Source: a virus (taxonomy: Duplodnaviria; Heunggongvirae; Uroviricota; Caudoviricetes). From it: a DNA stretch of 28,457 nt. Of this stretch, positions 8,078 to 28,457 are shown piece after piece; the first letter of the stretch is position 1, and the number at the start of each line of letters is the position of its first letter. The DNA is taken from positions 1 to 28,457 of IMG/VR virus record IMGVR_UViG_2698536484_000010; one strand, 5' to 3'. A program made the translations under genes and the position numbers. The notes under the pieces are model-generated. The model saw only the letters and a list, made by a program, of their open reading frames with translations. It was not told where the DNA came from and did no database searches.

Positions 8078-8085
8078 TCATTCAT

Positions 8086-8103: not shown

Positions 8104-8126
8104 CCTGTTCTGACGGGTGAAGAATC

Positions 8127-8327: not shown

Positions 8328-8329
8328 GC

Positions 8330-11780: not shown

Positions 11781-12136
11781 TGGCCCGTATCGGGGGAACC
11801 TGTTATTTCAAAATTGACGGTCAACAGCTATCGCTGACCGGCGGCATTGAGGTGCCCATGAACAGGACGGTCAATGATGACATCATCGGCCTGGACGGTT
11901 CAGTGGACCGCAAGGAAACTCACCGTGCGCCTTATGTCAAAGGGACTTTCAAGGTACCGAAGAATTTTCCGGTGAGCAAAATCACCTCGTCTGATGAGAT
12001 GACCATCACTGCCGAGCTGGCGAACGGTCAGGTCTATGTATTGTCGTCTGCCTGGCTGCACGGTGAAGCGAACCATAATGCCGAAGAAGGCACGGTCGAT
12101 ATTGAATTTCACGGTGAAGAAGGGGATTACCAGTGA
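11780..12136 (+). CDS. Tail tube protein (Mu gpM-like)
   Basis: 118 aa; coupled to the sheath gene; canonical position. Confidence 0.8.
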   Translation: MARIGGTCYFKIDGQQLSLTGGIEVPMNRTVNDDIIGLDGSVDRKETHRAPYVKGTFKVPKNFPVSKITSSDEMTITAELANGQVYVLSSAWLHGEANHNAEEGTVDIEFHGEEGDYQ

Positions 12137-12456
12137 TTGAGCTTGTACTTAAAAAACCGATCATCGCCCACAAAGAAACACTGCATGTGTTGGAAATACG
12201 TGAGCCTACGTATGACGAGATTGAGGCGCTGGGGTTCCCTTTCTCTGTTTCGCCTGATGGTGGTATGAAAATGGACAGTCAGGTGGCGCTGAAATATATC
12301 CCGCTTCTGGCCGGGATCCCGCGCTCGTCTGCAGCGCAGATGACGAAGCTGGATATTTTCAAGGCAGGCATGATTGTAATGCGTTTTTTTACCGGCTTGG
12401 AGACGGAAGAGACCTCCGGAAGCGATTCTACAATGTCGCGTGGTTCTGGAAATTAA
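12133..12456 (+). CDS. Tail assembly chaperone, short form
   Basis: 107 aa; canonical position between tube and tape measure; contains T7 slippery run near the 3' end. Confidence 0.65.
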   Translation: MIELVLKKPIIAHKETLHVLEIREPTYDEIEALGFPFSVSPDGGMKMDSQVALKYIPLLAGIPRSSAAQMTKLDIFKAGMIVMRFFTGLETEETSGSDSTMSRGSGN

Positions 12457-12548
12457 ACCCCCTTGAACTTCGCCGGACGGCTATTTCTCACTTTGCTGAT
12501 CTGGAGGCAGAGGCCGTCCGTATAAATGAGGAGATGAAGCATGGCTGA
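12384..12548 (+). other. -1 frameshift site (T_TTT_TTT at 12384-12390) and extension ORF giving the long chaperone form
   Basis: The -1 frame is open from 12390 to the stop at 12546-12548 (about 52 codons, no ATG start), ending just inside the tape-measure gene; the same arrangement as lambda G/GT and P2 E/E+E'. Confidence 0.55.
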
Positions 12549-14448
12549 TAATTTTCAGCTGAAAGCCATCATCACCGCCGTTGACAGGCTATCCGGCCCG
12601 CTTAAAGGTATGCAGCGTCAGCTTAAGGGATTTCAGAAAGAAGTCTCCAGCCTTGCTCTGGGCGCTGCCGGGGCTGGTACTGCAATAATGGGGGCACTGG
12701 CACTCCCTGTAAAATCAGCCATCACCCTTGAATCGAAGATGGCTGATGTCCGCAAAGTGGTGGACGGTCTGGATACGCCGGATGCATTTAAGGCCATGAC
12801 GGAGCAGGTACGCGCTTTGTCTACAGAGCTTCCCATGTCTGCAGACGGGATCGCGGAAATTGTGGCGGCTGGCGGTCAGGCCGGGATTGCACGTGATGAA
12901 CTGATGCAGTTTGCCACTGATGCGGTGAAGATGGGCGTGGCCTTTGATACAACGGCTGAAGAGTCCGGGCAGATGATGGCCCAGTGGCGTACTGCGTTTA
13001 ATATGACACAGGATGAAGTGGCTGGGCTGGCTGACAAAATCAACTACCTTGGTAATACCGGCCCGGCGAATGCGAAGAAAATCTCCGATATTGTTACGCG
13101 TATTGGTCCTTTAGGTGGTGTTGCTGGTGTGGCTTCCGGCGAAATCGCGGCGATGGGGGCAACCATTGCCGGGATGGGCGTGGAGTCAGAAATTGCCGCC
13201 ACAGGGATCAAGAACTTCATGCTTTCCCTGACCGCGGGAAATTCCGCGACAAAATCGCAGAAACAGGCATTGCGTTTTCTGCGGATCAATCCGAAGAAAT
13301 TAGCTACTGATATGCAGAAAGATGCCCGGGGCACCATGCTGTCTGTACTGGATGCGATGGCTAAAGTGCCTAAAGAAAAACAGGCAGCTGTGCTGAATGC
13401 CCTGTTCGGGAAAGAGTCTCTGGGCGCGATAGCACCTCTGCTGACTAACCTTGATTTGTTGCGTACCAACTTCAGGCGGGTTGCGGATTCCCAGCAATAT
13501 GGCAGTTCGATGCAGAAGGAATATGCTTCGAGGGCAGCGACGACGGAAAACCAGCTTTTACTTCTGCAAAATCAACTTGATGCCATTTCTTCCACGCTGG
13601 GGGAAACGTTTCTTCCTGAGGTTAATGATGGTCTTGAAGCGGTAAAACCGCTCCTTGAGGAAGTGAGAACGTTTGTCCGTGAAAACCCGGAGCTCGTTAA
13701 GACCATTGCTAAAATCGGTCTGGCCTTACTGACGGTGGGAGCCGCTGCAGGCTCTTTGTCCAGAATTATGAAAGTTCTCGGCGGTGTGATGAATATGACG
13801 CCTGCTAAGGGGCTGATTGCTCTTCTGGTTGGTGGCGCTTACCTCATTATTGATAACTGGGAAACCGTAGGTCCTGTCATAAAAAAAGTCTGGCACGTGG
13901 TGGATGAAACGGCGCAGGCGATGGGGGGATGGGAAACTGTTCTGAAAGCGATTGCCCTGTTTATGGCAACCAAATGGGTTGCTGACGTTACCAAATCCAT
14001 TACCGCAGTGACCAGAGAGATGCGTACGCTGGGGAAGGTATCGGCAGAAACGGGATTGATGGGGAAAGGCCGCGGCTTTATCGGGAAGGCCGGGGTATAT
14101 GGTTTTCTGGGAACCCTGATGTATGAGCCGGTTAAAGATACTCTGGAAAGTGTTGTTCCTGAAGATACGGTTAACTGGCTGGATAATAAAGGGCTGTTTC
14201 TGGCTTCAGACTGGACGCCTTTTTTTGATCGTAAAGAGTACGAGCAGTATCAGGCCAGCCTGAGTCAGTACAAACCCAATGTTCCGCTGTTGAATCCATC
14301 TTCTTCCATGACACAGCACAGCGAGCTGAAAGTCACGTTCGAGAATGCTCCGCCAGGTATGAAGATAATTGATGTACCGGGAAAAGCCGATCCCCTGATG
14401 AAAATCACGCACGATGTGGGGTATTCCCCTTTTCGTTTTCCACGATAA
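12541..14448 (+). CDS. Tail tape measure protein
   Basis: 635 aa; Ala/Gly-rich, helical and TM-like segments; follows the chaperone pair. Confidence 0.85.
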   Translation: MADNFQLKAIITAVDRLSGPLKGMQRQLKGFQKEVSSLALGAAGAGTAIMGALALPVKSAITLESKMADVRKVVDGLDTPDAFKAMTEQVRALSTELPMSADGIAEIVAAGGQAGIARDELMQFATDAVKMGVAFDTTAEESGQMMAQWRTAFNMTQDEVAGLADKINYLGNTGPANAKKISDIVTRIGPLGGVAGVASGEIAAMGATIAGMGVESEIAATGIKNFMLSLTAGNSATKSQKQALRFLRINPKKLATDMQKDARGTMLSVLDAMAKVPKEKQAAVLNALFGKESLGAIAPLLTNLDLLRTNFRRVADSQQYGSSMQKEYASRAATTENQLLLLQNQLDAISSTLGETFLPEVNDGLEAVKPLLEEVRTFVRENPELVKTIAKIGLALLTVGAAAGSLSRIMKVLGGVMNMTPAKGLIALLVGGAYLIIDNWETVGPVIKKVWHVVDETAQAMGGWETVLKAIALFMATKWVADVTKSITAVTREMRTLGKVSAETGLMGKGRGFIGKAGVYGFLGTLMYEPVKDTLESVVPEDTVNWLDNKGLFLASDWTPFFDRKEYEQYQASLSQYKPNVPLLNPSSSMTQHSELKVTFENAPPGMKIIDVPGKADPLMKITHDVGYSPFRFPR

Positions 14449-14472
14449 CGCAGTCCTTTTTGAGGTCAGTCT

Positions 14473-15849
14473 ATGGATTTATCCTCATTTCCCACCCGAC
14501 CTTCATTACTTTCGTCGTCTTCAGGCTGGCGTGACAGGCTTCAGGACGCGTCATTTCGCGGCGTGCCGTTTAAGGTTGAAGAAGAAAGTGCGGGAACCGG
14601 TCGCCGTGTGGAAACACATGAATACCCGAACCGCGACAAGCCCTATACCGAAGATCTGGGAAAAGTCACTTTCCGCCCGTCCATCACAGCTTATGTGGTG
14701 GGAGATGACTGCTTTGACCAGCGCGATCGCCTGATTGAAGCGCTGAATAAACCCGGTCCCGGCACGCTTGTCCACCCGACATATGGTGAGCTGAAAGTCT
14801 GTGTTGACGGGGAAGTTCGGGTCAGCACATCGAAAAGTGAAGGGCGTATTGTCCGCTTTGACCTGAAGTTTGTCGAAGCAGGAGAACTCTCTTACCCCAC
14901 ATCAGGTGCGGCGACGGCGCAGACGCTGATGTCATCCTGTTCTGCACTGGATGACTGCATTAGTGACAGCTTCAGCGGTTTCAGTATCGATGGTGTGGCG
15001 GATTTCGTGCAGAACGACGTTATCGGTAATGCCAGCATAATGCTGGGGTATGTTTCTGATGCGATGAAAGTGGTGGATTCTGCCGTATCGGATGCCGCCA
15101 GGCTGTTGCAGGGGGATATCTCGGTACTTCTGCCGCCGCCATCGTCAGGCAAAAATTTCGTTGAGCAGGTGCAGAAAATGTGGCGTACCGGGAAACGCCT
15201 TTATGGTAACGCCAGCGACCTGGTTACCATGATCAAAACGCTTTCCGGTGTCAGCCTCGGCAGCGATCTGCAACCGCGCGGCGTCTGGAAAACGGACAGT
15301 AAAACCACCGCCACGGCGACGCAGCAGCGTAACGTGGTTGCCAGCACCCTTCGTACGACCGCAATCAGCGAAGTGGCGTATGCCGTCACCCGATTGCCTG
15401 CGCCAACAACTTCCGCGGTGATGCAGAATTCCGCAGTGGGGCAGGCAACAACACCCGCGCAGAGCACTGGCTGGCCTTCCGTCACGCATCCGGCACTGAA
15501 CAATGCACCGGCGGTGAAAAACACGGTTGACCTGCCGACGTGGGAAGAACTGACTGACATTCGCGACACACTGAATACGGCAATTGATAAGGAGTTGTCC
15601 CGTACAACCAGTGATGCGCTGTTTCTGGCGCTGCGCCGGGTGAAAGCAGATCTGAATGCGGATATCAACACGCGCCTTGAACAGTCTGCACGGATCATTC
15701 AGCGCACACCGGATGAGGTTTTACCCGCGCTGGTGCTGGCGGCTACCTGGTTTGATAACGCGGCGCGTGACGCGGACATTATCCGGCGTAATGCCATTAC
15801 GCATCCCGGCTTTGTGCCGGTGATCCCTCTGAAGGTGCCAGTGCAATGA
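14473..15849 (+). CDS. DNA circularisation-like tail protein (Mu gpN-like)
   Basis: 458 aa; position after the tape measure in Mu-type tail clusters. Confidence 0.65.
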   Translation: MDLSSFPTRPSLLSSSSGWRDRLQDASFRGVPFKVEEESAGTGRRVETHEYPNRDKPYTEDLGKVTFRPSITAYVVGDDCFDQRDRLIEALNKPGPGTLVHPTYGELKVCVDGEVRVSTSKSEGRIVRFDLKFVEAGELSYPTSGAATAQTLMSSCSALDDCISDSFSGFSIDGVADFVQNDVIGNASIMLGYVSDAMKVVDSAVSDAARLLQGDISVLLPPPSSGKNFVEQVQKMWRTGKRLYGNASDLVTMIKTLSGVSLGSDLQPRGVWKTDSKTTATATQQRNVVASTLRTTAISEVAYAVTRLPAPTTSAVMQNSAVGQATTPAQSTGWPSVTHPALNNAPAVKNTVDLPTWEELTDIRDTLNTAIDKELSRTTSDALFLALRRVKADLNADINTRLEQSARIIQRTPDEVLPALVLAATWFDNAARDADIIRRNAITHPGFVPVIPLKVPVQ

Positions 15850-16925
15850 ACGACAATGTCACGCTACGGGTAAATGGCCGGGAGTGGAATGGCTGGACAT
15901 CGGTGCGCATCGGTGCCGGTATTGAACGGCTGGCGCGGGATTTCAGTGTGGAGATCACTCGCCAGTGGCCGGGAGATGAGGGTATCACCACGCTTCAGCC
16001 GCGCATTAAAAACGGTTCAAAAGTGGAAGTGCTGATTGGTGATGAGCTGGTGATCACCGGCTGGGTGGAGGCGACGCCCGTTCGTTACGATGCCCGTTCG
16101 GTCAGCACCGGTATTGCCGGACGTAGTCTGACGGCTGACCTGATTGACTGTGCAGCCGAACCGACACAGTTTAACGGACGCTCGCTGGTGCAGATTGCGC
16201 AGGCGCTTGCTGCGCCTTTCGGCATTGAGGTGGTGAACAGCGGTGCGCCGTCGGGTGTTATTCCTGATGTTCAGCCTGATCACGGTGAAACGGTGATTGA
16301 GGTAATCAACAAAATACTCGGTCAGCAGCAGGCACTGGCTTACGACGACCCGCACGGCAGGCTGGTGATTGGCGGTATTGGCTCAACGCGGGCACATACC
16401 GCGCTGGTACTCGGGGAAAACATCCTTTCCTGTGATACGGAGAAGAGTATCCGGGAGCGGTTTTCTGTTTACCAGGTGGCGGGGCAGCGTGCCGGAAACG
16501 ACGATGATTTCGGTGAGGCCACCACCACCGCGCTGCGGGCCCGCACAGAGGACGCATTTATTGCCCGTTACCGTCCGATGTATATCAGGCAGACAGGGCA
16601 GGCTACGGGGGCAGGCTGTATTGCCCGTGCGGACTTTGAAGCCAGACAACGGGCGGCGCGGACGGATGAAACCACCTATGTGGTGCAGGGCTGGCGACAG
16701 GGTAACGGTACGCTGTGGCAGCCCAACCAGCGGGTGATTGTCTTTGATCCGGTCTGTGGTTTCGACAATACCGAACTGCTTGTTTCGGAAGTCACGTTTA
16801 CTCAGGACCAGAACGGCACCCTGACGGAAATCCGTGTCGGCCCACCTGATGCTTATCTGCCTGAACCCGAAGCCCCCGGCGCGCGAAAAAAGAAAAAAGC
16901 CAGAGTACAGGAGGACCCGTTCTGA
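15846..16925 (+). CDS. Baseplate hub / tail protein (Mu gpP-like)
   Basis: 359 aa; coupled start; canonical position. Confidence 0.7.
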   Translation: MNDNVTLRVNGREWNGWTSVRIGAGIERLARDFSVEITRQWPGDEGITTLQPRIKNGSKVEVLIGDELVITGWVEATPVRYDARSVSTGIAGRSLTADLIDCAAEPTQFNGRSLVQIAQALAAPFGIEVVNSGAPSGVIPDVQPDHGETVIEVINKILGQQQALAYDDPHGRLVIGGIGSTRAHTALVLGENILSCDTEKSIRERFSVYQVAGQRAGNDDDFGEATTTALRARTEDAFIARYRPMYIRQTGQATGAGCIARADFEARQRAARTDETTYVVQGWRQGNGTLWQPNQRVIVFDPVCGFDNTELLVSEVTFTQDQNGTLTEIRVGPPDAYLPEPEAPGARKKKKARVQEDPF

Positions 16926-17473
16926 TGAGGACGATTGAAGCCATGCAGCGACAACTCCTCGGCCTGATTGGGCGGGCCGTGGTGAAAAGCATCAGTGCCG
17001 CCACGAAATGTCAGACCGTGGATGTGTCTCTGATTGCCGGTGAACCCAAAGCCGGGGTTGAACATCTTGAACCCTACGGTTTTACCGCAAGGGCAAACAG
17101 CGGTGCGGAAGCGGTGGTGTTGTTTCCGGATGGCGACCGTTCTCATGCGGTGGTTGTTACGGTGTCGGACCGGCGCTACCGCCTGAAAGGGCTGCAGACG
17201 GGTGAGGTGGCTGTCTATGACGATCAGGGGCAGTCCGTGACGCTGACCCGGGAGGGGATCGTGGTGGACGGTGCAGGTAAAACGATCACGTTTCGCAATG
17301 CGCCTAAGGCTCGTTTTGAAATGGACCTGGAAGTGACCGGACAGGTGAAAGACCTGTGCGACTCCAGCGGCACCACCATGTCAGCGATGCGGCTTGCCTA
17401 TAACGGGCATCGTCACAGAGAGAACGGTCAGGGCAGTAACACCGACAAACCTGATAAAGCGATGGAGGCATGA
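16925..17473 (+). CDS. Baseplate assembly protein V / spike
   Basis: 182 aa; SD aggagga 9 nt upstream; canonical position. Confidence 0.7.
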   Translation: MRTIEAMQRQLLGLIGRAVVKSISAATKCQTVDVSLIAGEPKAGVEHLEPYGFTARANSGAEAVVLFPDGDRSHAVVVTVSDRRYRLKGLQTGEVAVYDDQGQSVTLTREGIVVDGAGKTITFRNAPKARFEMDLEVTGQVKDLCDSSGTTMSAMRLAYNGHRHRENGQGSNTDKPDKAMEA

Positions 17474-17898
17474 TGGAACTGTGGCTGACGGTGAACGGTA
17501 AACGCACCTGCGCCAGCGCACCGCTGGATCCGCTGACCCGTGCCGTGGTGATTTCCCTGTTCACCTGGCGGCGGGCTGAACCTGATGACAATGCCGACGT
17601 CCCGATGGGATGGTGGGGGGATACCTGGCCTGCGGTACAGAATGACCGTTACGGCTCCCGACTGTGGCTGCTTCAGCGCAGCAAACTGACCAATCAGCTG
17701 GTGCAGACGGTAAGGGGGTATATCCGCGAATGCCTGCAATGGATGATTGATGACGGCGTGGTGTCCCGTATTGATCTGGATATCCGCCGCACCGGGATTA
17801 ATGAACTGGGTAACAGTATCACTCTCTGGCGTCGTGACGGACCGGTAATGATTTCTTTTGATGATCTGTGGAGTGCGATAACGCATGGCGGACAGTGA
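17470..17898 (+). CDS. Baseplate protein (Mu gp46 / GPW-like)
   Basis: 142 aa; coupled; position. Confidence 0.65.
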   Translation: MMELWLTVNGKRTCASAPLDPLTRAVVISLFTWRRAEPDDNADVPMGWWGDTWPAVQNDRYGSRLWLLQRSKLTNQLVQTVRGYIRECLQWMIDDGVVSRIDLDIRRTGINELGNSITLWRRDGPVMISFDDLWSAITHGGQ

Positions 17899-18943
17899 AT
17901 TTCAGCGCCCGACGCTGGCAGAAAATATCAGTATGCTCCGTAACGATTTATTCGCCAGGCTGGACGTCAGCGACACGCTCCGGCGCATGGATGAAGACGT
18001 GCGGGCAAAGGTGTATGCGGCGGCGCTGCATACGGTTTACGGTTACATCGATTATCTGGCAATGAACATGCTGCCTGACCTGTGCGATGAGTCCTGGCTG
18101 GCGCGACATGCTGCGATGAAACGGTGTCCGCGCAAGGGAGCCACGGCTGCCAGTGGGTATATGCGCTGGGAAGGTGTCAGCGATGGCCTGAAGGTGACCG
18201 CCGGGAGCGTGATTCAGCGCGATGACCTGGTTCAGTACACGGCAACTGCCGATGCAACCAGCTCCGGTGGTGTCCTGCGTGTGCCGATCACTTGCTCAAC
18301 TACAGGCGCGGTCGGTAACGCTGACGACGGTACGGCATTAATCCTGGTCACGCCGGTGAATGGTCTGCCGTCTTCCGGCGTGGCAGATACCCTGACAGGT
18401 GGATTTGATACTGAAGAGCTGGAAACGTGGCGCGCCCGCGTCATTGAGCGGTATTACTGGACGCCTCAGAGCGGGGCTGACGGGGACTATGTTGTCTGGG
18501 CTAAAGAAGTTCCCGGCATTACCCGCGCATGGACATACCGACACTGGATGGGAACGGGGACTGTCGGTGTGATGATTGCCAGCAGCGACCTGATTAACCC
18601 CATTCCGGAAGAATCAACGGAAACGGCGGCAAGACAACACATTGAGCCACTGGCTCCGGTGGCAGGCTCTGATTTGTATGTATTCAGGCCGGTGGCACAT
18701 ACGGTGGATTTTCATATCCGCGTGACGCCGGACACACCAGAAATACGGGCTGCCATTACCGCGGAGTTGCGTTCGTTCCTGCTGCGTGATGGTTATCCGC
18801 AGGGAGAACTGAAGGTATCGCGTATCAGTGAGGCGATTTCCGGTGCGAACGGGGAATACAGCCATCAGTTGCTTGCACCGGCGGACAATATCTCCATTGC
18901 AAAAAATGAACTGGCGGTTCTGGGGACGATTTCATGGACGTGA
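17885..18943 (+). CDS. Baseplate J-like protein (Mu gp47-like)
   Basis: 352 aa; coupled; position. Confidence 0.75.
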
Positions 18944-19518
18944 CAAACGATGATTACATCCGTCTGTTGTCGGCACTGCTGCCGCCCGGTCCGGCGTGGT
19001 CAGCCAGCGATCCGGCGATTGCCGGTGCAGCACCGTCATTAACCCGCGTTCATCAGCGTGCGGATGCCCTGATGCGGGAGCTGGATCCGCGCACCACCAC
19101 CGAACTGATAAACCGCTGGGAGCGTCTGTGCGGCCTGCCAGATGAATGTATTCCTACAGGGACACAGACCCTTCGCCAGCGTCAGCAACGGCTGGATGCG
19201 AAGGTTAACCTGTCGGGTGGCATCAACGAGGATTTTTATCTTGCACAGCTTGCTGCCCTGGGCAGACCAGATGCTACCATCACGCGATACGACAAAAGTA
19301 CGTTCACCTGCTCATCGGCCTGTACTGACGCTGTGAACGCGCCTGAATGGCGGTATTACTGGCAGGTCAACATGCCAGCCGCCACCAACACCACCTGGAT
19401 GACATGTGGCGATCCCTGTGATTCCGCACCGCGTATCTGGGGCGACACCGTTGTCGAATGTGTGCTTAACAAACTCTGCCCGTCGCATACCTACGTAATT
19501 TTTAAATATCCGGAGTAA
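18934..19518 (+). CDS. YmfQ-like tail protein (Mu gp48 / P2 gpI-like), Cys-rich C-terminus
   Basis: 194 aa; immediately upstream of the tail fibre gene as in e14-like phages. Confidence 0.7.
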
Positions 19519-19825
19519 TCCATGCATCGTATAGACACGAAAACCGCGCAGAAGGATAAGTTCGGCGCGGGTAAGAACGGTTTTACCCGTGGTAACCCCC
19601 AGACCGGCACGCCTGCCACCGATCTGGATGATGACTACTTTGACATGTTGCAGGAGGAGCTTTGCAGCGTTGTGGAGGCGTCCGGTGCCAGCCTGGAGAA
19701 GGGGCGGCACGACCAGCTACTTACCGCGCTTCGCGCGCTGCTGTTAAGCCGCAAGAATCCGTTTGGCGATATCAAATCGGATGGCACGGTGAAAATGGCT
19801 CTCGAAAACCTTGGTTTGGGAGAAG
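19064..19825 (+). repeat. Direct repeat copy 1 (762 bp: YmfQ 3' part + Sc + pix); copy 2 at 20689-21450
   Basis: Identical translations in all frames across both copies; boundaries read from sequence. Confidence 0.75.
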
Positions 19826-20130
19826 CGGCAAAACGGAATGTGGGAACAGGGGAAAATCAGATACCTAGTATGTCAGAATGGACATCTGGGACAGGATGGA
19901 ATAGAGACCCGTCGGGGAGAATAATACAGCGGGGATTTGCTATGACATCAAGTCAAACTAACATTTTATTCCCGATACCATTTCCGTATGACGATTTCGA
20001 AGTTATCGTTTGTGCAGCAGATACAGGAGCAAATAAAGGGGCCGTAAATGTGTTGCGAAAATCGAGGCAGGGGTTTTCTGTTTCACAGGTTGGAAGTATG
20101 CCAGTCGCATACAGATGGATAGCGGGGTGA
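19522..20130 (+). CDS. Tail fibre protein: constant N-terminus (Sc, aa 1-97) fused to variable C-terminus Sv1
   Basis: 202 aa; first 100 aa identical to the ORF at 21147; the two diverge directly after the 26-bp crossover site at 19799-19824. Confidence 0.75.
19799..19824 (+). other. Pin crossover site (pix-like): CTCTCGAAAACC-TT-GGTTTGGGAGAA
   Basis: Two imperfectly symmetric 12-bp half sites flanking a 2-bp core, same architecture as gix/hix; lies exactly at the Sc/Sv junction and at the inverted-repeat boundary. Confidence 0.7.
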
Positions 20131-20573
20131 TTGAAATGTATAAATTTGATCCAAAGAATGCATTATTCTATCCTGCTGCGTCAATTTCCGATTATAAATT
20201 GAGCGAAGATGAAATCGCCACATTCACTGATATTAGCGAGGAGGATGCAACCGAGTTTTTAGGATTCCCGCCGACTGGAAAAATCAGAGGGTCGGACGGT
20301 TATGGCAATCCTGCATGGGTTGAAATACCTCCACCATCACATGAGGAACTTATTGAACAGGCCGAATCAGAGAGGCAATTATTGATTAACCATGCCAACG
20401 AATACATGAACAGTAAACAATGGCCTGGTAAAGCGGCTATTGGTCGTCTGAATGGTGAGGAACTGGCGCAATATAATTTGTGGCTGGATTATCTGAACGC
20501 ACTGGAACTGGTTGATACCTCCAGTGCGCCAGATATTGAATGGCCTACGCCTCCGGCAGTTCAGGCCAGATGA
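20115..20573 (+). CDS. Tail fibre assembly chaperone Tfa1
   Basis: 152 aa; overlaps the fibre gene 3' end; identical inverted copy at 22521-22979. Confidence 0.75.
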
Positions 20574-20687
20574 CATCCGGCGCGGTGCTGGTATCTGTTG
20601 CCGTCACCGCGTCAATGTAATCCAGCACAGCGTTAAGTCGGGTGGTTTCTGCCTGCGTCAGTTTACGTCCGGCCTGCAATTTCAGTT
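20545..20687 (-). pseudogene. 3' fragment (about 47 codons) of the Tfa2 gene, inverted copy
   Basis: Reverse complement of 22407-22549; copy ends abruptly at 20687. Confidence 0.5.
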
Positions 20688-20688
20688 A

Positions 20689-21143
20689 ATGCCCTGATGC
20701 GGGAGCTGGATCCGCGCACCACCACCGAACTGATAAACCGCTGGGAGCGTCTGTGCGGCCTGCCAGATGAATGTATTCCTACAGGGACACAGACCCTTCG
20801 CCAGCGTCAGCAACGGCTGGATGCGAAGGTTAACCTGTCGGGTGGCATCAACGAGGATTTTTATCTTGCACAGCTTGCTGCCCTGGGCAGACCAGATGCT
20901 ACCATCACGCGATACGACAAAAGTACGTTCACCTGCTCATCGGCCTGTACTGACGCTGTGAACGCGCCTGAATGGCGGTATTACTGGCAGGTCAACATGC
21001 CAGCCGCCACCAACACCACCTGGATGACATGTGGCGATCCCTGTGATTCCGCACCGCGTATCTGGGGCGACACCGTTGTCGAATGTGTGCTTAACAAACT
21101 CTGCCCGTCGCATACCTACGTAATTTTTAAATATCCGGAGTAA
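20689..21143 (+). pseudogene. Truncated duplicate of the YmfQ-like gene (equivalent to codons 46-194 of 18934-19518; translated copy 20697-21143)
   Basis: 148 aa identical to the C-terminal part of the gene at 18934; no N-terminus or proper start. Confidence 0.55.
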
Positions 21144-21146
21144 TCC

Positions 21147-21947
21147 ATGCATCGTATAGACACGAAAACCGCGCAGAAGGATAAGTTCGGCGCGGGTAAG
21201 AACGGTTTTACCCGTGGTAACCCCCAGACCGGCACGCCTGCCACCGATCTGGATGATGACTACTTTGACATGTTGCAGGAGGAGCTTTGCAGCGTTGTGG
21301 AGGCGTCCGGTGCCAGCCTGGAGAAGGGGCGGCACGACCAGCTACTTACCGCGCTTCGCGCGCTGCTGTTAAGCCGCAAGAATCCGTTTGGCGATATCAA
21401 ATCGGATGGCACGGTGAAAATGGCTCTCGAAAACCTTGGTTTGGGAGAAGGTTCGGCATTACCCGTTGGTGTGCCTGTTCCGTGGCCTTCCGCCACTCCG
21501 CCAACAGGCTGGCTGAAATGCAACGGTGCGGCTTTTTCTGCTGAAGAATACCCGGAACTGGCAAAGGCTTACCCGACAAATAAATTGCCTGATTTACGTG
21601 GTGAGTTTATTCGTGGCTGGGATGACGGACGTGGTATGGATACGGGGAGGGCAATATTATCAGCTCAGGGCGATGCCATACGTAATATCTATGGTGAGTT
21701 CAAGACTGTAAACACCGAAAATTATTCAATATGGGAATCAGCAGGCTCGTTTAAGGGGGCAGTGGTGCCTTTGAATCCCTCAACGAACAATAGTTATTTC
21801 TCCTTAACCAGAAGTATGGTGACTGAAAGAACAGATGGCGCTGTTTACCCAAAAGTGATTGGCCTTGATGCTTCAAGAATTGTTCCAACTGCAAACGAAA
21901 ACCGTCCTCGTAACATTGCCTTTAATTATATCGTGAGAGCTGCCTGA
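21147..21947 (+). CDS. Tail fibre protein: Sc fused to alternative C-terminus Sv2
   Basis: 266 aa; C-terminal region matches the receptor-binding domain pattern of P2 H / Mu S-like fibres ([17 protein letters not shown] ... [10 protein letters not shown]). Confidence 0.8.
21424..21449 (+). other. Pin crossover site (pix-like), identical 26-mer to 19799-19824
   Basis: Same 26-bp sequence at the Sc/Sv2 junction. Confidence 0.7.
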
Positions 21948-22549
21948 TGAATAAAGCCGTATTAAATAACGAACTCATTGCCATAAAAGCGGGAGACATT
22001 ACCATTTATAATTATGATGGTGAAACGCGGGAATATATTTCCACATCAACTGAATATCTTGCGGTTGGCGTCGGTATCCCGGAATGTTCTTGTTTAGATG
22101 CACCAGTTACACATAAAGCTGGTTATGCAATCTGCCGTTCTGCAGATTTTAACTCATGGGAATATGTGCCAGACCATCGCGGTGAAATCATCTATAGCAC
22201 CGAAACAGGAGAATCGAAAGAAATCACAGCTCCGGGTGATTACCCTGAAAATACAACCACTATCGCCCCGTTAACGCCATATGATAAATGGGATGGTGAG
22301 AAATGGGTGACGGATACCGGGGCACAGCATAGCGCCGCAGTAGATGCAGCAGAAGCACAGCGCCAGTCGCTGATTGATACTGCAATGGCTTCCATCAGTC
22401 TGATTCAACTGAAATTGCAGGCCGGACGTAAACTGACGCAGGCAGAAACCACCCGACTTAACGCTGTGCTGGATTACATTGACGCGGTGACGGCAACAGA
22501 TACCAGCACCGCGCCGGATGTCATCTGGCCTGAACTGCCGGAGGCGTAG
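21947..22549 (+). CDS. Tail fibre assembly chaperone Tfa2
   Basis: 200 aa; N-terminus [10 protein letters not shown] typical of Tfa proteins; 3' end converges on and overlaps Tfa1 on the opposite strand. Confidence 0.75.
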   Translation: MNKAVLNNELIAIKAGDITIYNYDGETREYISTSTEYLAVGVGIPECSCLDAPVTHKAGYAICRSADFNSWEYVPDHRGEIIYSTETGESKEITAPGDYPENTTTIAPLTPYDKWDGEKWVTDTGAQHSAAVDAAEAQRQSLIDTAMASISLIQLKLQAGRKLTQAETTRLNAVLDYIDAVTATDTSTAPDVIWPELPEA

Positions 22550-22979
22550 GCCATTCAATATCTGGCGCACTGGAGGTATCAACCAGTTCCAGTGCGTTCA
22601 GATAATCCAGCCACAAATTATATTGCGCCAGTTCCTCACCATTCAGACGACCAATAGCCGCTTTACCAGGCCATTGTTTACTGTTCATGTATTCGTTGGC
22701 ATGGTTAATCAATAATTGCCTCTCTGATTCGGCCTGTTCAATAAGTTCCTCATGTGATGGTGGAGGTATTTCAACCCATGCAGGATTGCCATAACCGTCC
22801 GACCCTCTGATTTTTCCAGTCGGCGGGAATCCTAAAAACTCGGTTGCATCCTCCTCGCTAATATCAGTGAATGTGGCGATTTCATCTTCGCTCAATTTAT
22901 AATCGGAAATTGACGCAGCAGGATAGAATAATGCATTCTTTGGATCAAATTTATACATTTCAATCACCCCGCTATCCAT
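22521..22979 (-). CDS. Tail fibre assembly chaperone Tfa1 (inverted cassette copy)
   Basis: 152 aa identical to 20115-20573. Confidence 0.7.
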
Positions 22980-23281
22980 CTGTATGCGACTGGCATACTT
23001 CCAACCTGTGAAACAGAAAACCCCTGCCTCGATTTTCGCAACACATTTACGGCCCCTTTATTTGCTCCTGTATCTGCTGCACAAACGATAACTTCGAAAT
23101 CGTCATACGGAAATGGTATCGGGAATAAAATGTTAGTTTGACTTGATGTCATAGCAAATCCCCGCTGTATTATTCTCCCCGACGGGTCTCTATTCCATCC
23201 TGTCCCAGATGTCCATTCTGACATACTAGGTATCTGATTTTCCCCTGTTCCCACATTCCGTTTTGCCGCTTCTCCCAAACC
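22964..23281 (-). CDS. Silent Sv1 cassette: promoterless, start-less variable C-terminal fibre segment that becomes fused to Sc on inversion
   Basis: Identical to codons 98-202 of 19522-20130; the ORF-track N-terminal extension to 23323 runs across the crossover site and is not credible. Confidence 0.6.
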
Positions 23282-23295
23282 AACGTTTATGAAAA
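23270..23295 (+). other. Pin crossover site in inverted orientation: TTCTCCCAAACC-AA-CGTTTATGAAAA
   Basis: Inner half site is the exact reverse complement of GGTTTGGGAGAA; core AA is the complement of TT; lies 55 bp upstream of pin. Confidence 0.65.
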
Positions 23296-23349
23296 TGCAG
23301 AAATAACGAGCAAATGGCATCATTCCTGCTTTTGTCAGGGAGATCTACC

Positions 23350-23904
23350 ATGCTTATTGGCTATGTACGTGTGTCAACAAATGACCAGAACACAGATCTA
23401 CAACGTAATGCGCTGAACTGTGCAGGATGTGAGCTGATTTTTGAAGACAAGATAAGCGGTACAAAGTCCGACAGACCAGGACTGAAAAAGCTGCTCAGGA
23501 CATTATCGGCAGGTGACACGCTGGTGGTCTGGAAACTGGACCGACTGGGGCGCAGTATGCGGCATCTTGTCGTGCTGGTGGAGGAGTTGCGCGAACGAGG
23601 CATCAACTTTCGTAGTCTGACGGATTCAATTGATACCAGTACCCCAATGGGGCGCTTTTTCTTTCATGTGATGGGTGCCCTGGCTGAAATGGAGCGTGAA
23701 CTGATTGTTGAACGAACAAAAGCTGGACTGGAAGCAGCTCGCGCACAGGGACGAATTGGTGGACGTCGCCCCAAACTTACACCAGAACAATGGGAGCAGG
23801 CCGGACGATTAATTGCATCAGGCGTTCCTCGCCAGAAGGTGGCGATCATCTATGATGTTGGTATATCGACACTGTATAAGAAGTTTCCGGTCGGAGATAA
23901 ATGA
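23350..23904 (+). CDS. pin: Serine DNA invertase (Pin/Gin/Hin/Cin family)
   Basis: MLIGYVRVSTNDQNTDLQRNAL... with catalytic Ser in the YVRVS motif and C-terminal HTH; SD GGGAG 7 nt upstream of ATG 23350. Confidence 0.9.
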   Translation: MLIGYVRVSTNDQNTDLQRNALNCAGCELIFEDKISGTKSDRPGLKKLLRTLSAGDTLVVWKLDRLGRSMRHLVVLVEELRERGINFRSLTDSIDTSTPMGRFFFHVMGALAEMERELIVERTKAGLEAARAQGRIGGRRPKLTPEQWEQAGRLIASGVPRQKVAIIYDVGISTLYKKFPVGDK

Positions 23905-23964: not shown

Positions 23965-24834
<870 letters not shown>

Positions 24835-24914
24835 CTAAGTCTTTGAATTTACATAGTACAAAAAAGATACTTTTCCTCATAATGTGAATTAATTTTATGT
24901 TTCGTTTGATGATT

Positions 24915-24980
24915 GGACCGGTCTCGAAAACCGGAGTGGGGGCAACTCCACCGGGGGTTCAAATCCCCCTCTCTCCGCCA
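24915..24980 (+). other. att core: 3' 66 nt of a tRNA-Ser(CGA) gene (anticodon stem-loop through CCA), no 5' half
   Basis: GGACCGGTCTCGAAAACCGG (anticodon CGA) ... CCGGGGGTTCAAATCCCCCTCTCTCCGCCA; upstream sequence cannot form the acceptor stem. Confidence 0.7.
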
Positions 24981-25025
24981 AAATTCAATCACTTATACAT
25001 CATTAAGTCAGTGACAAAAATCACA

Positions 25026-25057
25026 CTTGGAATTACTTGGAATATTTTCTTGGAATA
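25026..25057 (+). repeat. Three direct copies of CTTGGAAT (25026, 25036, 25050), candidate integrase arm-type sites
   Basis: Read directly; overlap the int stop codon, lying between int and the att core. Confidence 0.4.
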
Positions 25058-26058
25058 TTTTCAGGTAACGGGACATCAAGTGTCGGTGAAACTTTAACCT
25101 TCCTGTCATAGATTAGCACTTGCCCCTCGGTTTTGTGACCAGAGAAAAGTTGCTTATCCCGACTGCTTCCTTCATAGTCTGAAATTCCTTTCGCCTTCAG
25201 ATCATGAAAGGTGAAGTCGGTTAAAATACCTGAAATTTTGCCTGCGCGATTTCTTGCTTCTACCCACATTTCGTTAAAGCCTTTGTACATATATCGGTTG
25301 CCGTATTGATTGCTGATTACATAGGCGGATGTTGGTAACTGTTTTGCTTTTTCGATCGCCGCCTGTAATCGTGGACTCCATGCTTTTATCTGTTTTTTTC
25401 CTGTTTTCCCTTGCTGGATAAAGATCCCGTCGTTTCCAATCTGCTCCCATTTCAGCGATAACACATCGGAAACCCTCGCTGCACACAGATAGGCAATTTC
25501 CATTGCGATAAAAACAGGAAGAGGTGCAACGCTTAATACTGCCTGGTATTCTTTGTCGGTTACATATCGTTCGCGGTTTTTGGCCTTGAATTTACTTACA
25601 CCTGCACATGGGTTACCCTTCACGTACCCTCGCTCATACCCCCAACTGTAAACGCGGGACATACTGCTTTTTTCATGGTTGGCTTGCGTTTTACTCTGCT
25701 CCCCTCTCTTGTCCATGTATCGACGGATGTGTTCTGGTTTTATGGAATCTGCCGGCACCTTACCGAATACGGCAAGCAACTTTTTTTGATGTTGCAGATA
25801 ATCTTTTTGTGTTCTTGGACTGAGGTCACTGTAATAGGCGCTGGCGAGGAATTTTTCCCACAAGCGACCGAATGTCATTGCACGATCGCGATTATTTACA
25901 GTTTCCTCATACTTTTTCCATAAAGCAGCTAAACCATCCTTGATGGCGGTTAGTGTTACAGATTCTCTGGATGTTGGTTTCCATGCATAACTATATTTAT
26001 TTGGGTATACATTTGGAGGTAATTTTTCGTGTTCAGGATTTTTCCTTCGTCTTCCCAT
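25033..26058 (-). CDS. int: Tyrosine integrase (lambda Int family)
   Basis: 341 aa; box I AARVSDVLSLKW, box II TFHDLK...GHKTEGQVLIY aligns with lambda TFHELR...GHKSDTMASQY. Confidence 0.9.
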   Translation of the reverse strand: MGRRRKNPEHEKLPPNVYPNKYSYAWKPTSRESVTLTAIKDGLAALWKKYEETVNNRDRAMTFGRLWEKFLASAYYSDLSPRTQKDYLQHQKKLLAVFGKVPADSIKPEHIRRYMDKRGEQSKTQANHEKSSMSRVYSWGYERGYVKGNPCAGVSKFKAKNRERYVTDKEYQAVLSVAPLPVFIAMEIAYLCAARVSDVLSLKWEQIGNDGIFIQQGKTGKKQIKAWSPRLQAAIEKAKQLPTSAYVISNQYGNRYMYKGFNEMWVEARNRAGKISGILTDFTFHDLKAKGISDYEGSSRDKQLFSGHKTEGQVLIYDRKVKVSPTLDVPLPENIPRKYSK

Positions 26059-26261
26059 CAGATCGCACCAAAATTCGGCTCTACCTCGCGTGGTGGTAAA
26101 GTTTTATTGCAGGTAAATAGCTCCCGGCTGACAATCGGTTTGCCACTACGATTGGTATAGAACGGAAGCCCGTTTTCCATTAACCATTTTCGCTGGTGGC
26201 TTGCATATTTGCAGCCCGTTAATATTAGCAATTCATCTTCGGTTAAAAATAAGCTGCTCAT
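26058..26261 (-). CDS. Excisionase-like small DNA-binding protein
   Basis: 67 aa; stop overlaps int start (ATGA); position and size typical of xis. Confidence 0.5.
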   Translation of the reverse strand: MSSLFLTEDELLILTGCKYASHQRKWLMENGLPFYTNRSGKPIVSRELFTCNKTLPPREVEPNFGAI

Positions 26262-26319
26262 AGCTATATCTCATAACCGCCGCTAACTATATACGGTTAG
26301 CGGCAATTAGGGTTGAACA

Positions 26320-28440
26320 TTAAAAATCAGCCTGACTCGGGATCAGTTTTTGCCAGATAGCTGAAACGTATTTTGCCTGGTAACGGGCGTCATCAAGTGC
26401 ATTATGGCGCTCACCTTCGAATGGAATAGCCGTTCTGGCATCGAAGTCTATGGCTTTCCCCAGCTCAACGATTGTGCGTACATCGCGATCGTTGTAGTAA
26501 CGCCACGGGCAGGGGATCCCCTGCCGTTCGTATGAACGGCGCAAAATCGTGTTGTCGAAGTTGGCTCCATTTCCCCAGACATGAACAAAAAATTCACCGG
26601 AGTTTTCGTCGATAAATTCCCGCAATTGTAACAGTGCATCATCTAACGGGATTTCATCGGCCATAATGGCAGATTGCGCTTCGCGTGATTGTTTAAGCCA
26701 CCATTTAATGGTGTCCCGATCAATGACTCCGCCAGCAGTTTCCAGATCGATAGTCTTACTAAATTCCGGTCCCATATCTCCGGTTTGCGGATCGAAAAAT
26801 ATTGCACCTATTGAGATAATCGGGGCATCGGGATTTTTTCCCATGGTTTCAAGGTCGATCATCAGATGAATCCCCGCTCTGCTGGTGGATGTGAGATTAT
26901 GATGACCGTTCGCCTTAATTAAGGGATCTGACGCCTCGCCAGTTTCACTATCGCTGGCATGATGCTGATTGCCGCCAGTGTTCTCCTTGTGCTGATGCGC
27001 AGTGCCTTCCATTTCCTCCGGATCATTTTCCTGAACTTCAGGCTGATTCTCTCCATCGAATATTTCCTGGTATGTTGCGTCACCCATCACCGCACCACAA
27101 TCAGGGCAGTTGCCGCCACCGCTCTGACCGCAGGCGGTGCAGATCTTTTCCGGTTCCTGTTGCACTACTGGTTCAGGTTGTTTCGTTTCTGGCTCGTTTT
27201 GTAACGCATTTGGGCTGTTTTGTTCCGCTTTTTGGTAGTTCCGTTCCGATTCATGCTGGTTCTGGTTCACAGAATCGCGAGTCTGGATCCCCTTGACCCA
27301 TTTCGGATCATTAGGGGCGCTAATCCCCTCAACAAATTCACCACGCGATACAGCAAGTAACTTATCGGCGTCAGGCTGGCTGATATTGGCTGCCTGCATA
27401 ATTTTGTTTACTTCGTCAGCGGTAACTTTTACCGGCCCTGGTTGTGCGGTCGTGTCAGATGCACCAGTATTTTGTTGTGAACCTGAGTATGTACCGTTTT
27501 TGCGGGCGAAATATTCTTCTTTCGTGATTTCAGTAGCCCCAGCAGACAGCGCCTTATCCAGACCAGAAAGTTTGTTTGCGCGACCGTATTTTTCGCCATC
27601 CTTGTCGGTGAAGAGGAAGTAGAACGGCCCCTCACGCTCTACAGATGGTTCAGCTTCCGGCGCGGTTTCATTTTTTGGGATATCAGATACCTCAGTTTCC
27701 ACTGCATCAGTTTGTGTTTCTGATGACTGGAGAACATCAACAGTGCCCAGGTCTGTTTCTTCATTCTCAAACACGCCCTTTGTCGTCAGGTATTCGCAGA
27801 TATATTTGTTCAGTGCTACGGGATCTTTGTGAATGTCGATCGGACGTTCACGGACAAGGCCAAAAATAGTCTGGCGGTCGTAGCGAAGGGCATCAGGCTG
27901 TTTGCGCATTGATGCCGAGATACGCTTCCAGTCTTCGCGGCCGTTGTCGATAACTTCATTTTTTGCCCAGCGATGGATGCTGCCGTCAATGTTTCCGGCA
28001 TCCACATCACCAGGCCAGAGAGCGTAGGCCAGTTCGTCATCCAGTGTTTTCCATGTCTGCTTGTATTCGCGATGAATGGCAGCAATGACCGGGCTGATTT
28101 TTCCTGTTGAATTTTCAGTGTACTGTTGATTGGCTCTGGCGCGGGCGAGATCAACAACAGACGTGTATTTTCCGGTTTCCTTGCGTTCACCTTCGCGACG
28201 TTTTTTCCAGATGCGCATCTCTGCCTGAATTTCGGGCCATTTAGCACCAGGAATACATTTATGCTTAACCCACCCAATGGCGTGCAACTTAAGCTCCGGA
28301 TACATGGCGTTAACTTCTGGCATTTTCATCAACGCTTCAACGATATGTCCGTCGAATGTTGCCATGTCTTCCTGCAACAATTCCTGTGCGCTAATAACCA
28401 TATCAACGGTGATGTTTTCACATGTGTCGAACTTAACCAT
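26320..28440 (-). CDS. Large exonuclease with C-terminal DnaQ-like DEDDh 3'-5' exonuclease domain
   Basis: 706 aa; C-terminal motifs IDLETMG (Exo I), VWGNGANFD (Exo II), HNALDDARY (Exo III with His); central CxxC...CxxC zinc-ribbon-like motif; acidic/polar linker. Confidence 0.7.
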   Translation of the reverse strand: MVKFDTCENITVDMVISAQELLQEDMATFDGHIVEALMKMPEVNAMYPELKLHAIGWVKHKCIPGAKWPEIQAEMRIWKKRREGERKETGKYTSVVDLARARANQQYTENSTGKISPVIAAIHREYKQTWKTLDDELAYALWPGDVDAGNIDGSIHRWAKNEVIDNGREDWKRISASMRKQPDALRYDRQTIFGLVRERPIDIHKDPVALNKYICEYLTTKGVFENEETDLGTVDVLQSSETQTDAVETEVSDIPKNETAPEAEPSVEREGPFYFLFTDKDGEKYGRANKLSGLDKALSAGATEITKEEYFARKNGTYSGSQQNTGASDTTAQPGPVKVTADEVNKIMQAANISQPDADKLLAVSRGEFVEGISAPNDPKWVKGIQTRDSVNQNQHESERNYQKAEQNSPNALQNEPETKQPEPVVQQEPEKICTACGQSGGGNCPDCGAVMGDATYQEIFDGENQPEVQENDPEEMEGTAHQHKENTGGNQHHASDSETGEASDPLIKANGHHNLTSTSRAGIHLMIDLETMGKNPDAPIISIGAIFFDPQTGDMGPEFSKTIDLETAGGVIDRDTIKWWLKQSREAQSAIMADEIPLDDALLQLREFIDENSGEFFVHVWGNGANFDNTILRRSYERQGIPCPWRYYNDRDVRTIVELGKAIDFDARTAIPFEGERHNALDDARYQAKYVSAIWQKLIPSQADF

Positions 28441-28457
28441 GACAGCGTTCTGTACTT

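What the first reader, a model, noticed from the sequence alone, without database searches (positions are those of the whole stretch)
24840..26058. attP-like arrangement: tRNA-Ser(CGA) 3' fragment flanked by tail-fibre module and int
A 66-nt stretch at 24915-24980 matches the 3' two-thirds of a serU-type tRNA-Ser(CGA) ending in CCA, but the upstream sequence cannot form the acceptor stem, so it is an att core, not a gene. Compared with my recollection of E. coli serU, the variable arm carries a compensatory pair of substitutions. Three CTTGGAAT direct repeats lie between the core and the int stop, as expected for arm-type sites. Structural genes on one side and int on the other is the un-integrated configuration, so this is a phage, plasmid-like or circularly assembled genome rather than a prophage end.
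Basis: partly seen in the sequence, partly recalled or inferred. Interest (0 to 1): 0.5.

Follow-up and report, generated by a model that had tools for sequence, protein, structure and literature searches.

The report
Junction of two serU prophages
The tRNA-Ser fragment is a real phage attachment site, but it is the seam where one serU-targeting prophage inserted next to a different one in a bacterial chromosome, which is a known and ordinary arrangement rather than the attP of a free phage.

Summary
Bases 24915-24980 are the 3' 66 nt of E. coli serU (64/66 identical), with no acceptor stem upstream. The two differences form a compensatory A-U to G-C pair in the variable arm. Three exact CTTGGAAT repeats sit at the 3' end of int.

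The interpretation (un-integrated attP of one phage or a circular molecule) is not supported.
- **Right arm:** it is cognate to the adjacent integrase, Int(B). Its native attP and attR in strain FORC 064 carry CTTGGAAT on both arms.
- **Left arm:** it has no exact CTTGGAAT. It carries TGAGAAAA-type sites with the same spacing as in ST64B and KpF5. In strain MB15 this exact arm is the attR of a complete SfV/ST64B-like myovirus at serU. That phage has its own ST64B-type integrase, Int(A).
- **Complete genomes:** only two of 5,426 E. coli genomes hold this junction. In both it lies between two complete prophages.
- **Source:** the window is a non-circular contig of a draft bacterial assembly.

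The site is therefore a hybrid P(A)-core-P'(B), made when phage B integrated into the serU core at the right end of prophage A. Natural recombinants confine the crossover to 24919-24937, the anticodon stem-loop. This is a known kind of arrangement and of low interest.

The parts
23314..23904 (+). pinE-like serine invertase of prophage A (context, end of the invertible fibre module)
   Evidence: Pfam Resolvase plus HTH_7. Annotated pinE in relatives.
23965..24738 (-). LEM-3-like GIY-YIG ORF, the last gene of prophage A before its att arm
   Evidence: Pfam PF22945. A 257-aa gene is called at these coordinates in the source contig. It is annotated as such in relatives.
24790..24914 (+). P arm of phage A, the arm cognate to an ST64B-type integrase
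   Evidence: Near-identical to the attR arm of MB15 (A-type phage alone at serU) and of strain 357900. Homologous in layout to the ST64B and KpF5 P arms.
24810..24817 (+). TGAGAAAA, an arm-type site of the ST64B/KpF5/Int(A) specificity (direct)
   Evidence: Only copy in the window. It lies 23 nt upstream of the GGCTAA box, the same spacing as in ST64B and KpF5. The same word occurs in the P' arm of MB15 attL.
24836..24848 (-). IHF-like box (ATTCAAAGACTTA on the minus strand), the inverted partner of 24983-24995
   Evidence: Inverted repeat I4. The box is conserved in the ST64B, KpF5 and Chris1 P arms regardless of arm-site type. Assignment to IHF is an inference from the consensus WATCAANNNNTTR.
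24872..24879 (-). TTTCCTCA, an inverted TGAGGAAA, one mismatch from the A-type arm site
   Evidence: Same position as TTTTCTCA in KpF5 and TTTTTTCTCG in ST64B.
24915..24980 (+). serU 3' fragment, the common core shared by host, phage A and phage B
   Evidence: 64/66 identical to K-12 serU. The same block is present in attL, attR and junction copies.
24919..24937 (+). Interval that must contain the strand-exchange site. It covers the anticodon stem-loop (24918-24934), whose loop is 24923-24929.
   Evidence: The native B attP differs from serU at 24915-24918 (TCAT for GGAC). attL copies carry the phage bases at 24938 and 24949, and attR copies carry the host bases, within one genome, FORC 064. 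A-type homology in EcE.CRE.COL breaks at 24933.
24983..24995 (+). IHF-like box ATTCAATCACTTA (H'-like), directly after the CCA end
   Evidence: Conserved as (A/T)TTCAAnCACTTA in ST64B, KpF5 and Chris1. The host has TATCAATGACTTA here. This is an inference.
25026..25056 (+). P' arm-type sites of Int(B): CTTGGAAT at 25026-33, 25036-43 and 25049-56
   Evidence: The same word occurs direct and inverted in the native P(B) arm. Homologues have three repeats of another word at the same place.
25033..26058 (-). int(B): a 341-aa tyrosine integrase, intact in the window
   Evidence: Pfam Phage_integrase, Phage_int_M and SAM-like domains. It is 59% identical to ST64B Int. It is present in 1,155 of 5,426 E. 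coli genomes. The five other contigs with the exact protein that show its downstream flank have mtfA (Peptidase_M90) there.
26058..26261 (-). DUF4224 ORF overlapping the int start, a putative excisionase of B
   Evidence: Pfam PF13986. It is conserved next to int in all relatives. The excisionase function is inferred from position only.
26320..28457 (-). RecE-like exonuclease of prophage B, cut by the contig end
   Evidence: Pfam Rv2179c-like. It is an 823-aa exonuclease in relatives.

Best explanation
The site is a hybrid attachment site, P(A)-core-P'(B). It marks the boundary between two different prophages lying head-to-tail in a bacterial chromosome.

Prophage A is an SfV/ST64B-like myovirus that occupies window 1-24914. 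Its native integrase is ST64B-like and binds TGAGAAAA-type arm sites. Prophage B is a Rac-like lambdoid phage that runs from 24981 onward. Its integrase, the one in the window, binds CTTGGAAT-type arm sites. Both integrases use the same core, the 3' part of serU, and exchange strands in the anticodon stem-loop.

B integrated into the serU core already present at the right end of A (A's attR, or a relic of it). Everything left of the crossover is therefore A or host sequence, and everything right of it is B sequence. That right-hand part includes the G-C variable-arm variant and the three P' repeats.

By analogy with lambda, the site should now serve as attR for excision of A and as attL for excision of B. 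It should be a poor attP for either integrase.

Shown here: arm cognacy, the crossover interval and the tandem context in complete genomes. Inferred: protein binding to the repeats, the IHF boxes, excision competence, and the tandem context in this particular genome.
For: - The right arm is cognate to Int(B). FORC 064 has attL, an internal P(B)-O-P'(B) junction and attR. Both P(B) arms carry GGCTTGGAATATTC (direct) and ATTCCAAG (inverted).
- The left arm is not cognate to Int(B). It has no exact CTTGGAAT. It has TGAGAAAA at 24810 and an inverted TGAGGAAA at 24872, with the same 23-nt spacing to a conserved box as in ST64B and KpF5.
- MB15 has the A-type phage alone at serU. Its order is mtfA-serU-P'(A) with TGAGAAAA-int(A)...GIY-YIG-P(A)-core-yodB. 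Int(A) matches ST64B Int at 85% in the N-domain but the window Int at only 37%.
- N-domain similarity tracks the arm-site word across five integrases.
- In Z1323HEC0067 and CD45 the same junction separates two complete prophages. In Z1323 prophage B has its own attR, P(B)-core(host type)-B', followed by exactly the DNA that follows A's core in strain 357900.
- Core polymorphisms fit. The phage-B bases at 24938 and 24949 appear in all attL-type copies, and the host bases appear in all attR-type copies.
- The window is a draft-genome contig with no terminal overlap.
- Precedent exists. Sp10 integrates in tandem using the attR of Rac as its attB (PMC2669165). Tandem arrays at tRNA genes are catalogued (PMC4383910). 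ST64B inserts in serU (PMC10100743).
Against: - The contig ends inside phage genes on both sides. The outer attL(A) and attR(B) of this particular genome were not seen, so the tandem arrangement is inferred from relatives that are only 96-99% identical.
- The left arm has two one-mismatch copies of CTTGGAAT, at 24783-24790 (minus strand) and 24841-24848 (plus strand). About 0.1 would be expected by chance in 135 bp, so some binding of Int(B) to this arm cannot be excluded.
- No binding or recombination experiment supports the arm-site assignments.
Confidence: 0.8

Rival explanations
1. One reading: this is the functional attP of one un-integrated, possibly chimeric, phage or circular element that combines the SfV-like late genes with the int-xis-recE early region.
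For: Phage genes lie on both sides of the core and no host DNA is in the contig. The int is intact here, whereas it is frameshifted in Z1323, CD45 and FORC 064. There are two one-mismatch CTTGGAAT copies in the left arm.
Against: The P arm is cognate to a different integrase. The contig has no terminal overlap and comes from a bacterial draft assembly. No phage record, IMG/VR contig or GTDB representative holds the junction. Int(B) is linked to siphovirus late genes where that can be seen. In lambda the distal P-arm site is required for integration (established knowledge of lambda Int, recalled and not tested here).
Confidence: 0.08
2. Inert scar: the junction arose as described, but one or both prophages are defective. 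The site no longer recombines and is only a fossil.
For: B-type int is frameshifted in three of the complete genomes examined. Many serU prophages are remnants. A-type arms persist as fossils at thrW in 413 genomes and in truncated form at ssrA.
Against: In the window int(B) is a full 341-aa ORF. All three P' repeats and the core are intact. The A late region is a complete set of ORFs.
Confidence: 0.09
3. Assembly chimera: the short-read assembler joined an attR(A) and an attL(B) from different loci through the shared serU core.
For: The contig has another suspicious join. The source record has an N at 20688, next to a 762-bp 100% direct repeat in the invertible fibre region.
Against: Only 23 bp (24915-24937) are shared between an A-type or host-type copy and a B-type copy before the first distinguishing base. 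A mis-join would therefore need k of 23 or less. The identical junction exists in two independently closed genomes.
Confidence: 0.03

Closest known systems
Salmonella phage ST64B attP/Int, which inserts in serU
   Same: The integrases are homologous: 59% identical to the window Int and about 83-85% to the Int of the A-type phage. The target tRNA gene is the same (PMC10100743). The attP layout is the same: a direct and an inverted arm site plus a conserved box on the P arm, the tRNA 3' part as core, and three direct repeats next to the int stop. The late genes are related.
   Different: ST64B has the same arm word, TGAGAAAA, on both arms. The window has TGAGAAAA-type on the left and CTTGGAAT on the right. 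The window's adjacent Int has a divergent N-terminal domain, 37% identical.
Tandem integration of a second prophage into the attR of a resident one (O157 Sakai Sp10 next to Rac in K-12, PMC2669165; tandem islands in Islander, PMC4383910)
   Same: A second element uses the att core at the end of a resident prophage as its attB. This gives a phage-phage junction that looks like attP.
   Different: Here the two phages have integrases of different arm specificity that share one core. The junction is therefore recognisably hybrid rather than a regenerated attP.
Bacteriophage lambda attP / attL / attR
   Same: It works like lambda: a tyrosine integrase with an N-terminal arm-binding domain, arm-type repeats on both arms, bending-protein boxes, and an xis-like gene upstream of int.
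   Different: The integrases share only the general family domain, with no close sequence relationship. The core is a tRNA anticodon stem-loop. The P' repeats overlap the end of int. No biochemical data exist.
Shigella phages SfIV, SfII, SfI and SfV
   Same: Window 2500-21450 is 96-98% identical over 47-73% of the 24.9-kb late-region query.
   Different: In the relative examined whose phage carries the same SfV-type late genes at thrW, it has a different integrase. None of the Sf phage records listed appeared among the phage-collection hits to 24700-26300, where only the core and the int side found matches and the left flank found none.

Membership tests
Complete cognate attP of a lambda-type (arm-binding) tyrosine integrase | A core identical to the target, with symmetric core-type sites around the overlap | tested here: met
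   A 66-bp serU block. The anticodon stem CCGGT/ACCGG flanks the 7-nt loop at 24918-24934.
Complete cognate attP of a lambda-type (arm-binding) tyrosine integrase | P' arm-type repeats matching the adjacent integrase | tested here: met
   CTTGGAAT x3. The same word is found on the native P(B) arms. The word co-varies with the Int N-domain across homologues. Binding itself was not tested.
Complete cognate attP of a lambda-type (arm-binding) tyrosine integrase | P arm-type sites of the same specificity as the P' arm | tested here: not met
   No exact CTTGGAAT lies left of the core. TGAGAAAA-type sites are there instead. The native P(B) arm is a different sequence.
Complete cognate attP of a lambda-type (arm-binding) tyrosine integrase | Both flanks belong to one phage genome | tested here: not met
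   In Z1323 and CD45 the flanks belong to two complete prophages. MB15 shows A with its own int. 606R7 and Z1323 show B with siphovirus late genes. For the window's own genome this is only inferred.
Tandem-prophage hybrid junction, attR(A)/attL(B) | The left arm is identical to the attR arm of a phage with a different integrase | tested here: met
   MB15 and 357900 attR arms.
Tandem-prophage hybrid junction, attR(A)/attL(B) | The right arm is identical to the attL arm of the adjacent integrase at the primary site | tested here: met
   mtfA-serU-P'-int in ON470580, ON470583 and FORC 064, and in the five other contigs with the exact Int that show its downstream flank.
Tandem-prophage hybrid junction, attR(A)/attL(B) | Core polymorphisms partition as expected for a crossover in the overlap region | tested here: met
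   Phage-type bases at 24938 and 24949 in the junction and attL copies, and host-type bases in attR copies.
Tandem-prophage hybrid junction, attR(A)/attL(B) | Outer attL(A) and attR(B) present on the same molecule | not testable with these tools
   The contig ends at 1 and 28457 inside phage genes. The other contigs of GCA_001286165.1 could not be fetched.
Functional tRNA-Ser gene | A full cloverleaf with an acceptor stem | tested here: not met
   ARAGORN finds 0 genes. Folding gives no acceptor stem. The chimeric serU in lysogens is called intact.
Anticodon-centred class of tRNA-gene att sites (Williams 2002; Islander class A) | The identity block runs from the anticodon stem to the 3' end, with the crossover at the anticodon loop | tested here: met
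   The block is 24915/24919-24980. The crossover is confined to 24919-24937 by natural recombinants. The class is described in PMC4383910.

The most novel reading that the evidence does not exclude
Copies of the serU att core carried at the right end of A-type prophages act as portable secondary attB sites for serU-specific lambdoid phages. These copies include fossil ones now sitting at thrW together with 278 bp of serU-downstream host DNA, found in 413 E. coli genomes. The phages they capture can include ones carrying the T3SS effectors nleB2, nleC, nleH and nleF. Two integrase lineages with one core but different arm codes would thereby exchange modules at the anticodon-loop crossover. This would explain the break of A-type homology exactly at 24933 in an ssrA-resident relative.
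Probability: 0.35. Interest if true: 0.35.

Novelty: new member of a known kind. Interest (0 to 1): 0.15.

Why it matters
Mostly as a caution. A tRNA fragment flanked by phage genes on both sides is not proof of a free or circular phage. Tandem prophages produce the same picture, and comparing the arm-type sites on the two sides tells the two cases apart. As a by-product, the analysis gives a working att-site map for a very common E. coli integrase (21% of complete genomes). The map covers the core, the crossover interval, the CTTGGAAT arm code and the IHF-like boxes. The analysis also shows that related integrases share serU as a target but use different arm words. This is useful for delimiting prophages and predicting which neighbours can excise independently.

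Tried and rejected
- **Rfam on 24000-26500:** only a sub-threshold tRNA-Sec partial hit and a spurious plastid UTR hit on the T-arm. Not informative.
- **Exact-pattern scans for the junction:** IMG/VR and GTDB representative genomes gave 0 hits. There was no help locating a free phage or another host. An exact 80-90-nt match is a strict requirement.
- **First literature search:** it matched 'serum' instead of serU and was repeated with whole-word matching.
- **CTTTGAAT at 24841 as a P-arm copy of the repeat:** rejected as the primary reading. It lies inside a box conserved in ST64B, KpF5 and Chris1 whatever their arm word. It is kept as a caveat.
- **Chromosomal inversion between thrW and serU prophages:** considered as an explanation for the serU-downstream DNA at thrW. 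Rejected because only 278 bp of serU-side DNA is present, and a thrW fragment follows about 2 kb later.
- **Assembly mis-join through the core:** considered unlikely, given only 23 bp of shared sequence and the same junction in closed genomes.
- **Not attempted:** a protein database search to find int(A) in the same assembly. No tool gives access to the other contigs of that assembly.

Full report
**1. What is in the sequence**

Window 24915-24980 reads GGACCGGTCTCGAAAACCGGAGTGGGGGCAACTCCACCGGGGGTTCAAATCCCCCTCTCTCCGCCA. It matches the last 66 nt of K-12 serU, tRNA-Ser(CGA), at 64 of 66 positions.
- ARAGORN finds no tRNA anywhere in the window.
- Rfam gives only sub-threshold partial hits.
- The 24 nt upstream cannot pair with the 3' acceptor strand.
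- The two differences, 24938 G for A and 24949 C for T, pair with each other in the variable arm. A-U therefore becomes G-C.
- CTTGGAAT occurs three times, at 25026, 25036 and 25049, and nowhere else in the window. No random sequence out of 300 showed any 8-mer tripled within 31 bp.
- The int stop codon is 25033-35. The repeats therefore overlap the end of int rather than lying between the core and the stop.
- To the left lie an SfV/SfIV-like late region, a pinE-type invertase and a LEM-3-like GIY-YIG ORF. To the right lie a 341-aa tyrosine integrase, a DUF4224 ORF and a RecE-like exonuclease.

**2. The right arm and core belong to the adjacent integrase, Int(B)**

Two prophage records show mtfA, a full serU, the same P' sequence and then int. 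Their match to the window starts exactly at 24915.

This int is present in 1,155 of 5,426 complete E. coli genomes. The five other contigs encoding exactly this protein that show its downstream flank have mtfA there.

In FORC 064 the serU locus holds two B-type prophage remnants in tandem. It therefore shows three sites in one genome:
- an attL;
- a native P(B)-O-P'(B) junction;
- an attR followed by the K-12 serU-downstream DNA and yodB.

Both native P(B) arms carry GGCTTGGAATATTC (direct) and ATTCCAAG (inverted). CTTGGAAT is therefore the arm word of this integrase on both arms.

In native P(B) the identity to serU starts at CGGTCTCG, equivalent to 24919. attL and junction copies carry G and C at 24938 and 24949. 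attR copies carry the host A and T. The crossover therefore lies within 24919-24937, which covers the anticodon stem-loop at 24918-34. This is the common anticodon-centred class of tRNA att sites (PMC4383910). The chimeric serU left in lysogens is still called an intact tRNA-Ser.

**3. The left arm belongs to another integrase, Int(A)**

Homologous integrases each have three direct repeats beside the int stop, plus matching copies on the P arm:

| Phage | Int identity to window Int | Target | Arm word |
|---|---|---|---|
| ST64B | 59% | serU | TGAGAAAA |
| KpF5 | about 60% | serU | TGAGAAAA |
| Chris1 | about 58% | serU | TTGGTATA |
| Evi | about 55% | serT | CTTGGTATA |

The first ~65 residues of these integrases diverge more than the rest, and their grouping follows the arm word.

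The window's left arm has no exact CTTGGAAT. It has the only TGAGAAAA in the window, at 24810, lying 23 nt before a conserved GGCTAA...TTGAA box. That is the same spacing as in ST64B and KpF5. It also has an inverted TGAGGAAA at 24872, where KpF5 has TTTTCTCA.

Strain MB15 shows where this arm belongs. A complete A-type myovirus sits alone at serU, and its lysis module is 99.1% identical to window 1-2600. Its order is mtfA, serU, a P' arm with TGAGAAAA, int(A), the rest of the phage, pinE, GIY-YIG, this same P arm, the core and yodB. Int(A) is 328 aa. It matches ST64B Int at 85% in the N-domain and 83% elsewhere, but matches the window's Int at only 37% in the N-domain.

**4. Context in closed genomes**

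Only two of 5,426 genomes contain the GIY-YIG-core-int junction.

In Z1323HEC0067 the gene order is as follows:
- proA, thrW and a thrW-type int;
- a lambdoid early region, lysis genes, and the SfV-like head and tail;
- pinE, GIY-YIG and then the junction;
- int(B), xis and exonuclease;
- B's own Q and lysis genes, lambda-like head and tail, and the effectors nleB2, nleC, nleH and nleF;
- P(B), a host-type core, and 278 bp of serU-downstream DNA followed by an AraC gene.

The DNA after B's attR is the same DNA that directly follows A's core in strain 357900, which lacks B. B therefore inserted into the serU core at A's right end.

CD45 shows the same picture: a full A late region on the left of the junction, and a B prophage with its own early, Q and holin genes on the right. 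Where the late genes of B-type prophages can be seen, they are siphoviral. The window is collinear with Z1323 at about 96-97% identity across both sides of the junction.

**5. Source of the window**

The window is the whole contig CYBA01000059.1 (28,457 bp) of draft assembly GCA_001286165.1. The only difference is an N at 20688 in the source record. Its ends share no sequence, so there is no sign of circularity. No phage record, IMG/VR contig or GTDB representative genome contains the junction.

**6. Mechanism**

The best-supported reading is a hybrid P(A)-core-P'(B) site, produced when phage B integrated into the att core at the end of resident prophage A.

Under the lambda model (established knowledge, not tested here) three things follow:
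- The site supplies the P arm needed to excise A.
- It supplies the P' arm needed to excise B.
- It lacks a cognate P arm for integration by Int(B).

The IHF-like boxes at 24836-48 and 24983-95, an inverted pair, and the excisionase role of DUF4224 are inferences.

There are two caveats. The left arm has two one-mismatch CTTGGAAT copies. The outer att sites of this particular genome were not seen.

**7. Comparison with what is known**

- ST64B is known to insert in serU (PMC10100743).
- Tandem integration into a resident prophage's attR is documented for Sp10 and Rac (PMC2669165).
- Tandem islands at tRNA genes are catalogued (PMC4383910).

This is an ordinary example of a known arrangement. 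Interest is low.

Noticed in passing
window 19064-23288: There is a 762-bp 100% direct repeat (19064-19825 = 20689-21450) and an 886-bp inverted repeat (19806-20690 vs 22403-23288). The source record has an N at 20688, exactly at the repeat boundary. It looks as if both orientations of the pinE-invertible fibre segment were assembled in series, so the duplicated fibre cassette is probably an assembly artefact.
   Followed up: partly
window 23965-24738 (-): A LEM-3-like GIY-YIG nuclease-domain ORF sits as the last gene before the att arm, in the position that (from memory, not checked here) mcrA occupies in e14. The pinE-GIY-YIG-core block is present in 561 E. coli records. Its function is unknown.
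   Followed up: partly
L004 6616-8807; L011 (reverse complement) about 750-2400: In 413 E. coli genomes an A-type prophage at thrW ends in this order: a serU att fragment, 278 bp of genuine serU-downstream host DNA, an AraC gene, an IS fragment and the thrW attR fragment. Host DNA from serU has travelled to thrW with the phage module. It served as a secondary attB for phage B in Z1323.
   Followed up: partly
L022 43175-43300: In EcE.CRE.COL an A-type prophage at ssrA keeps the P(A) arm, but homology to the window stops at 24933, inside the anticodon stem. A cytosine methyltransferase / type II restriction cassette follows. The module boundary coincides with the inferred crossover region.
   Followed up: partly
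L012 19795-19860; L003 21708-22758; L023 21705-22755: The internal junction of FORC 064 has only two CTTGGAAT repeats, with one 13-bp unit missing. The B-type int is annotated as frameshifted in FORC 064 (the serU-proximal copy), Z1323 and CD45, whereas it is intact in the window.
   Followed up: no
L011 reverse complement, attR(B) of Z1323: The displaced serU fragment has a mutated T-loop, GGGGGGGCAAATCC instead of GGGGGTTCAAATCC. This is decay of a copy that is no longer part of a tRNA gene.
   Followed up: no
L009 about 2520-2900: Escherichia phage Evi has an integrase of the same family (55% identity). Its att core is the 3' part of serT, tRNA-Ser(UGA), and its arm word is CTTGGTATA. This is an example of retargeting to a different tRNA-Ser gene within the family.
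   Followed up: partly
L024 9183-11434: In MB15 three hypothetical ORFs lie between the P'(A) arm repeats next to serU and int(A). This is a cargo insertion between the att site and int.
   Followed up: no
window 24836-24850 and 24981-24995: A 15-nt inverted repeat (87% complementary) brackets the core. Each arm contains an ATTCAAnnnnTTA box resembling the IHF consensus. The host has a perfect TATCAATGACTTA immediately after serU.
   Followed up: partly
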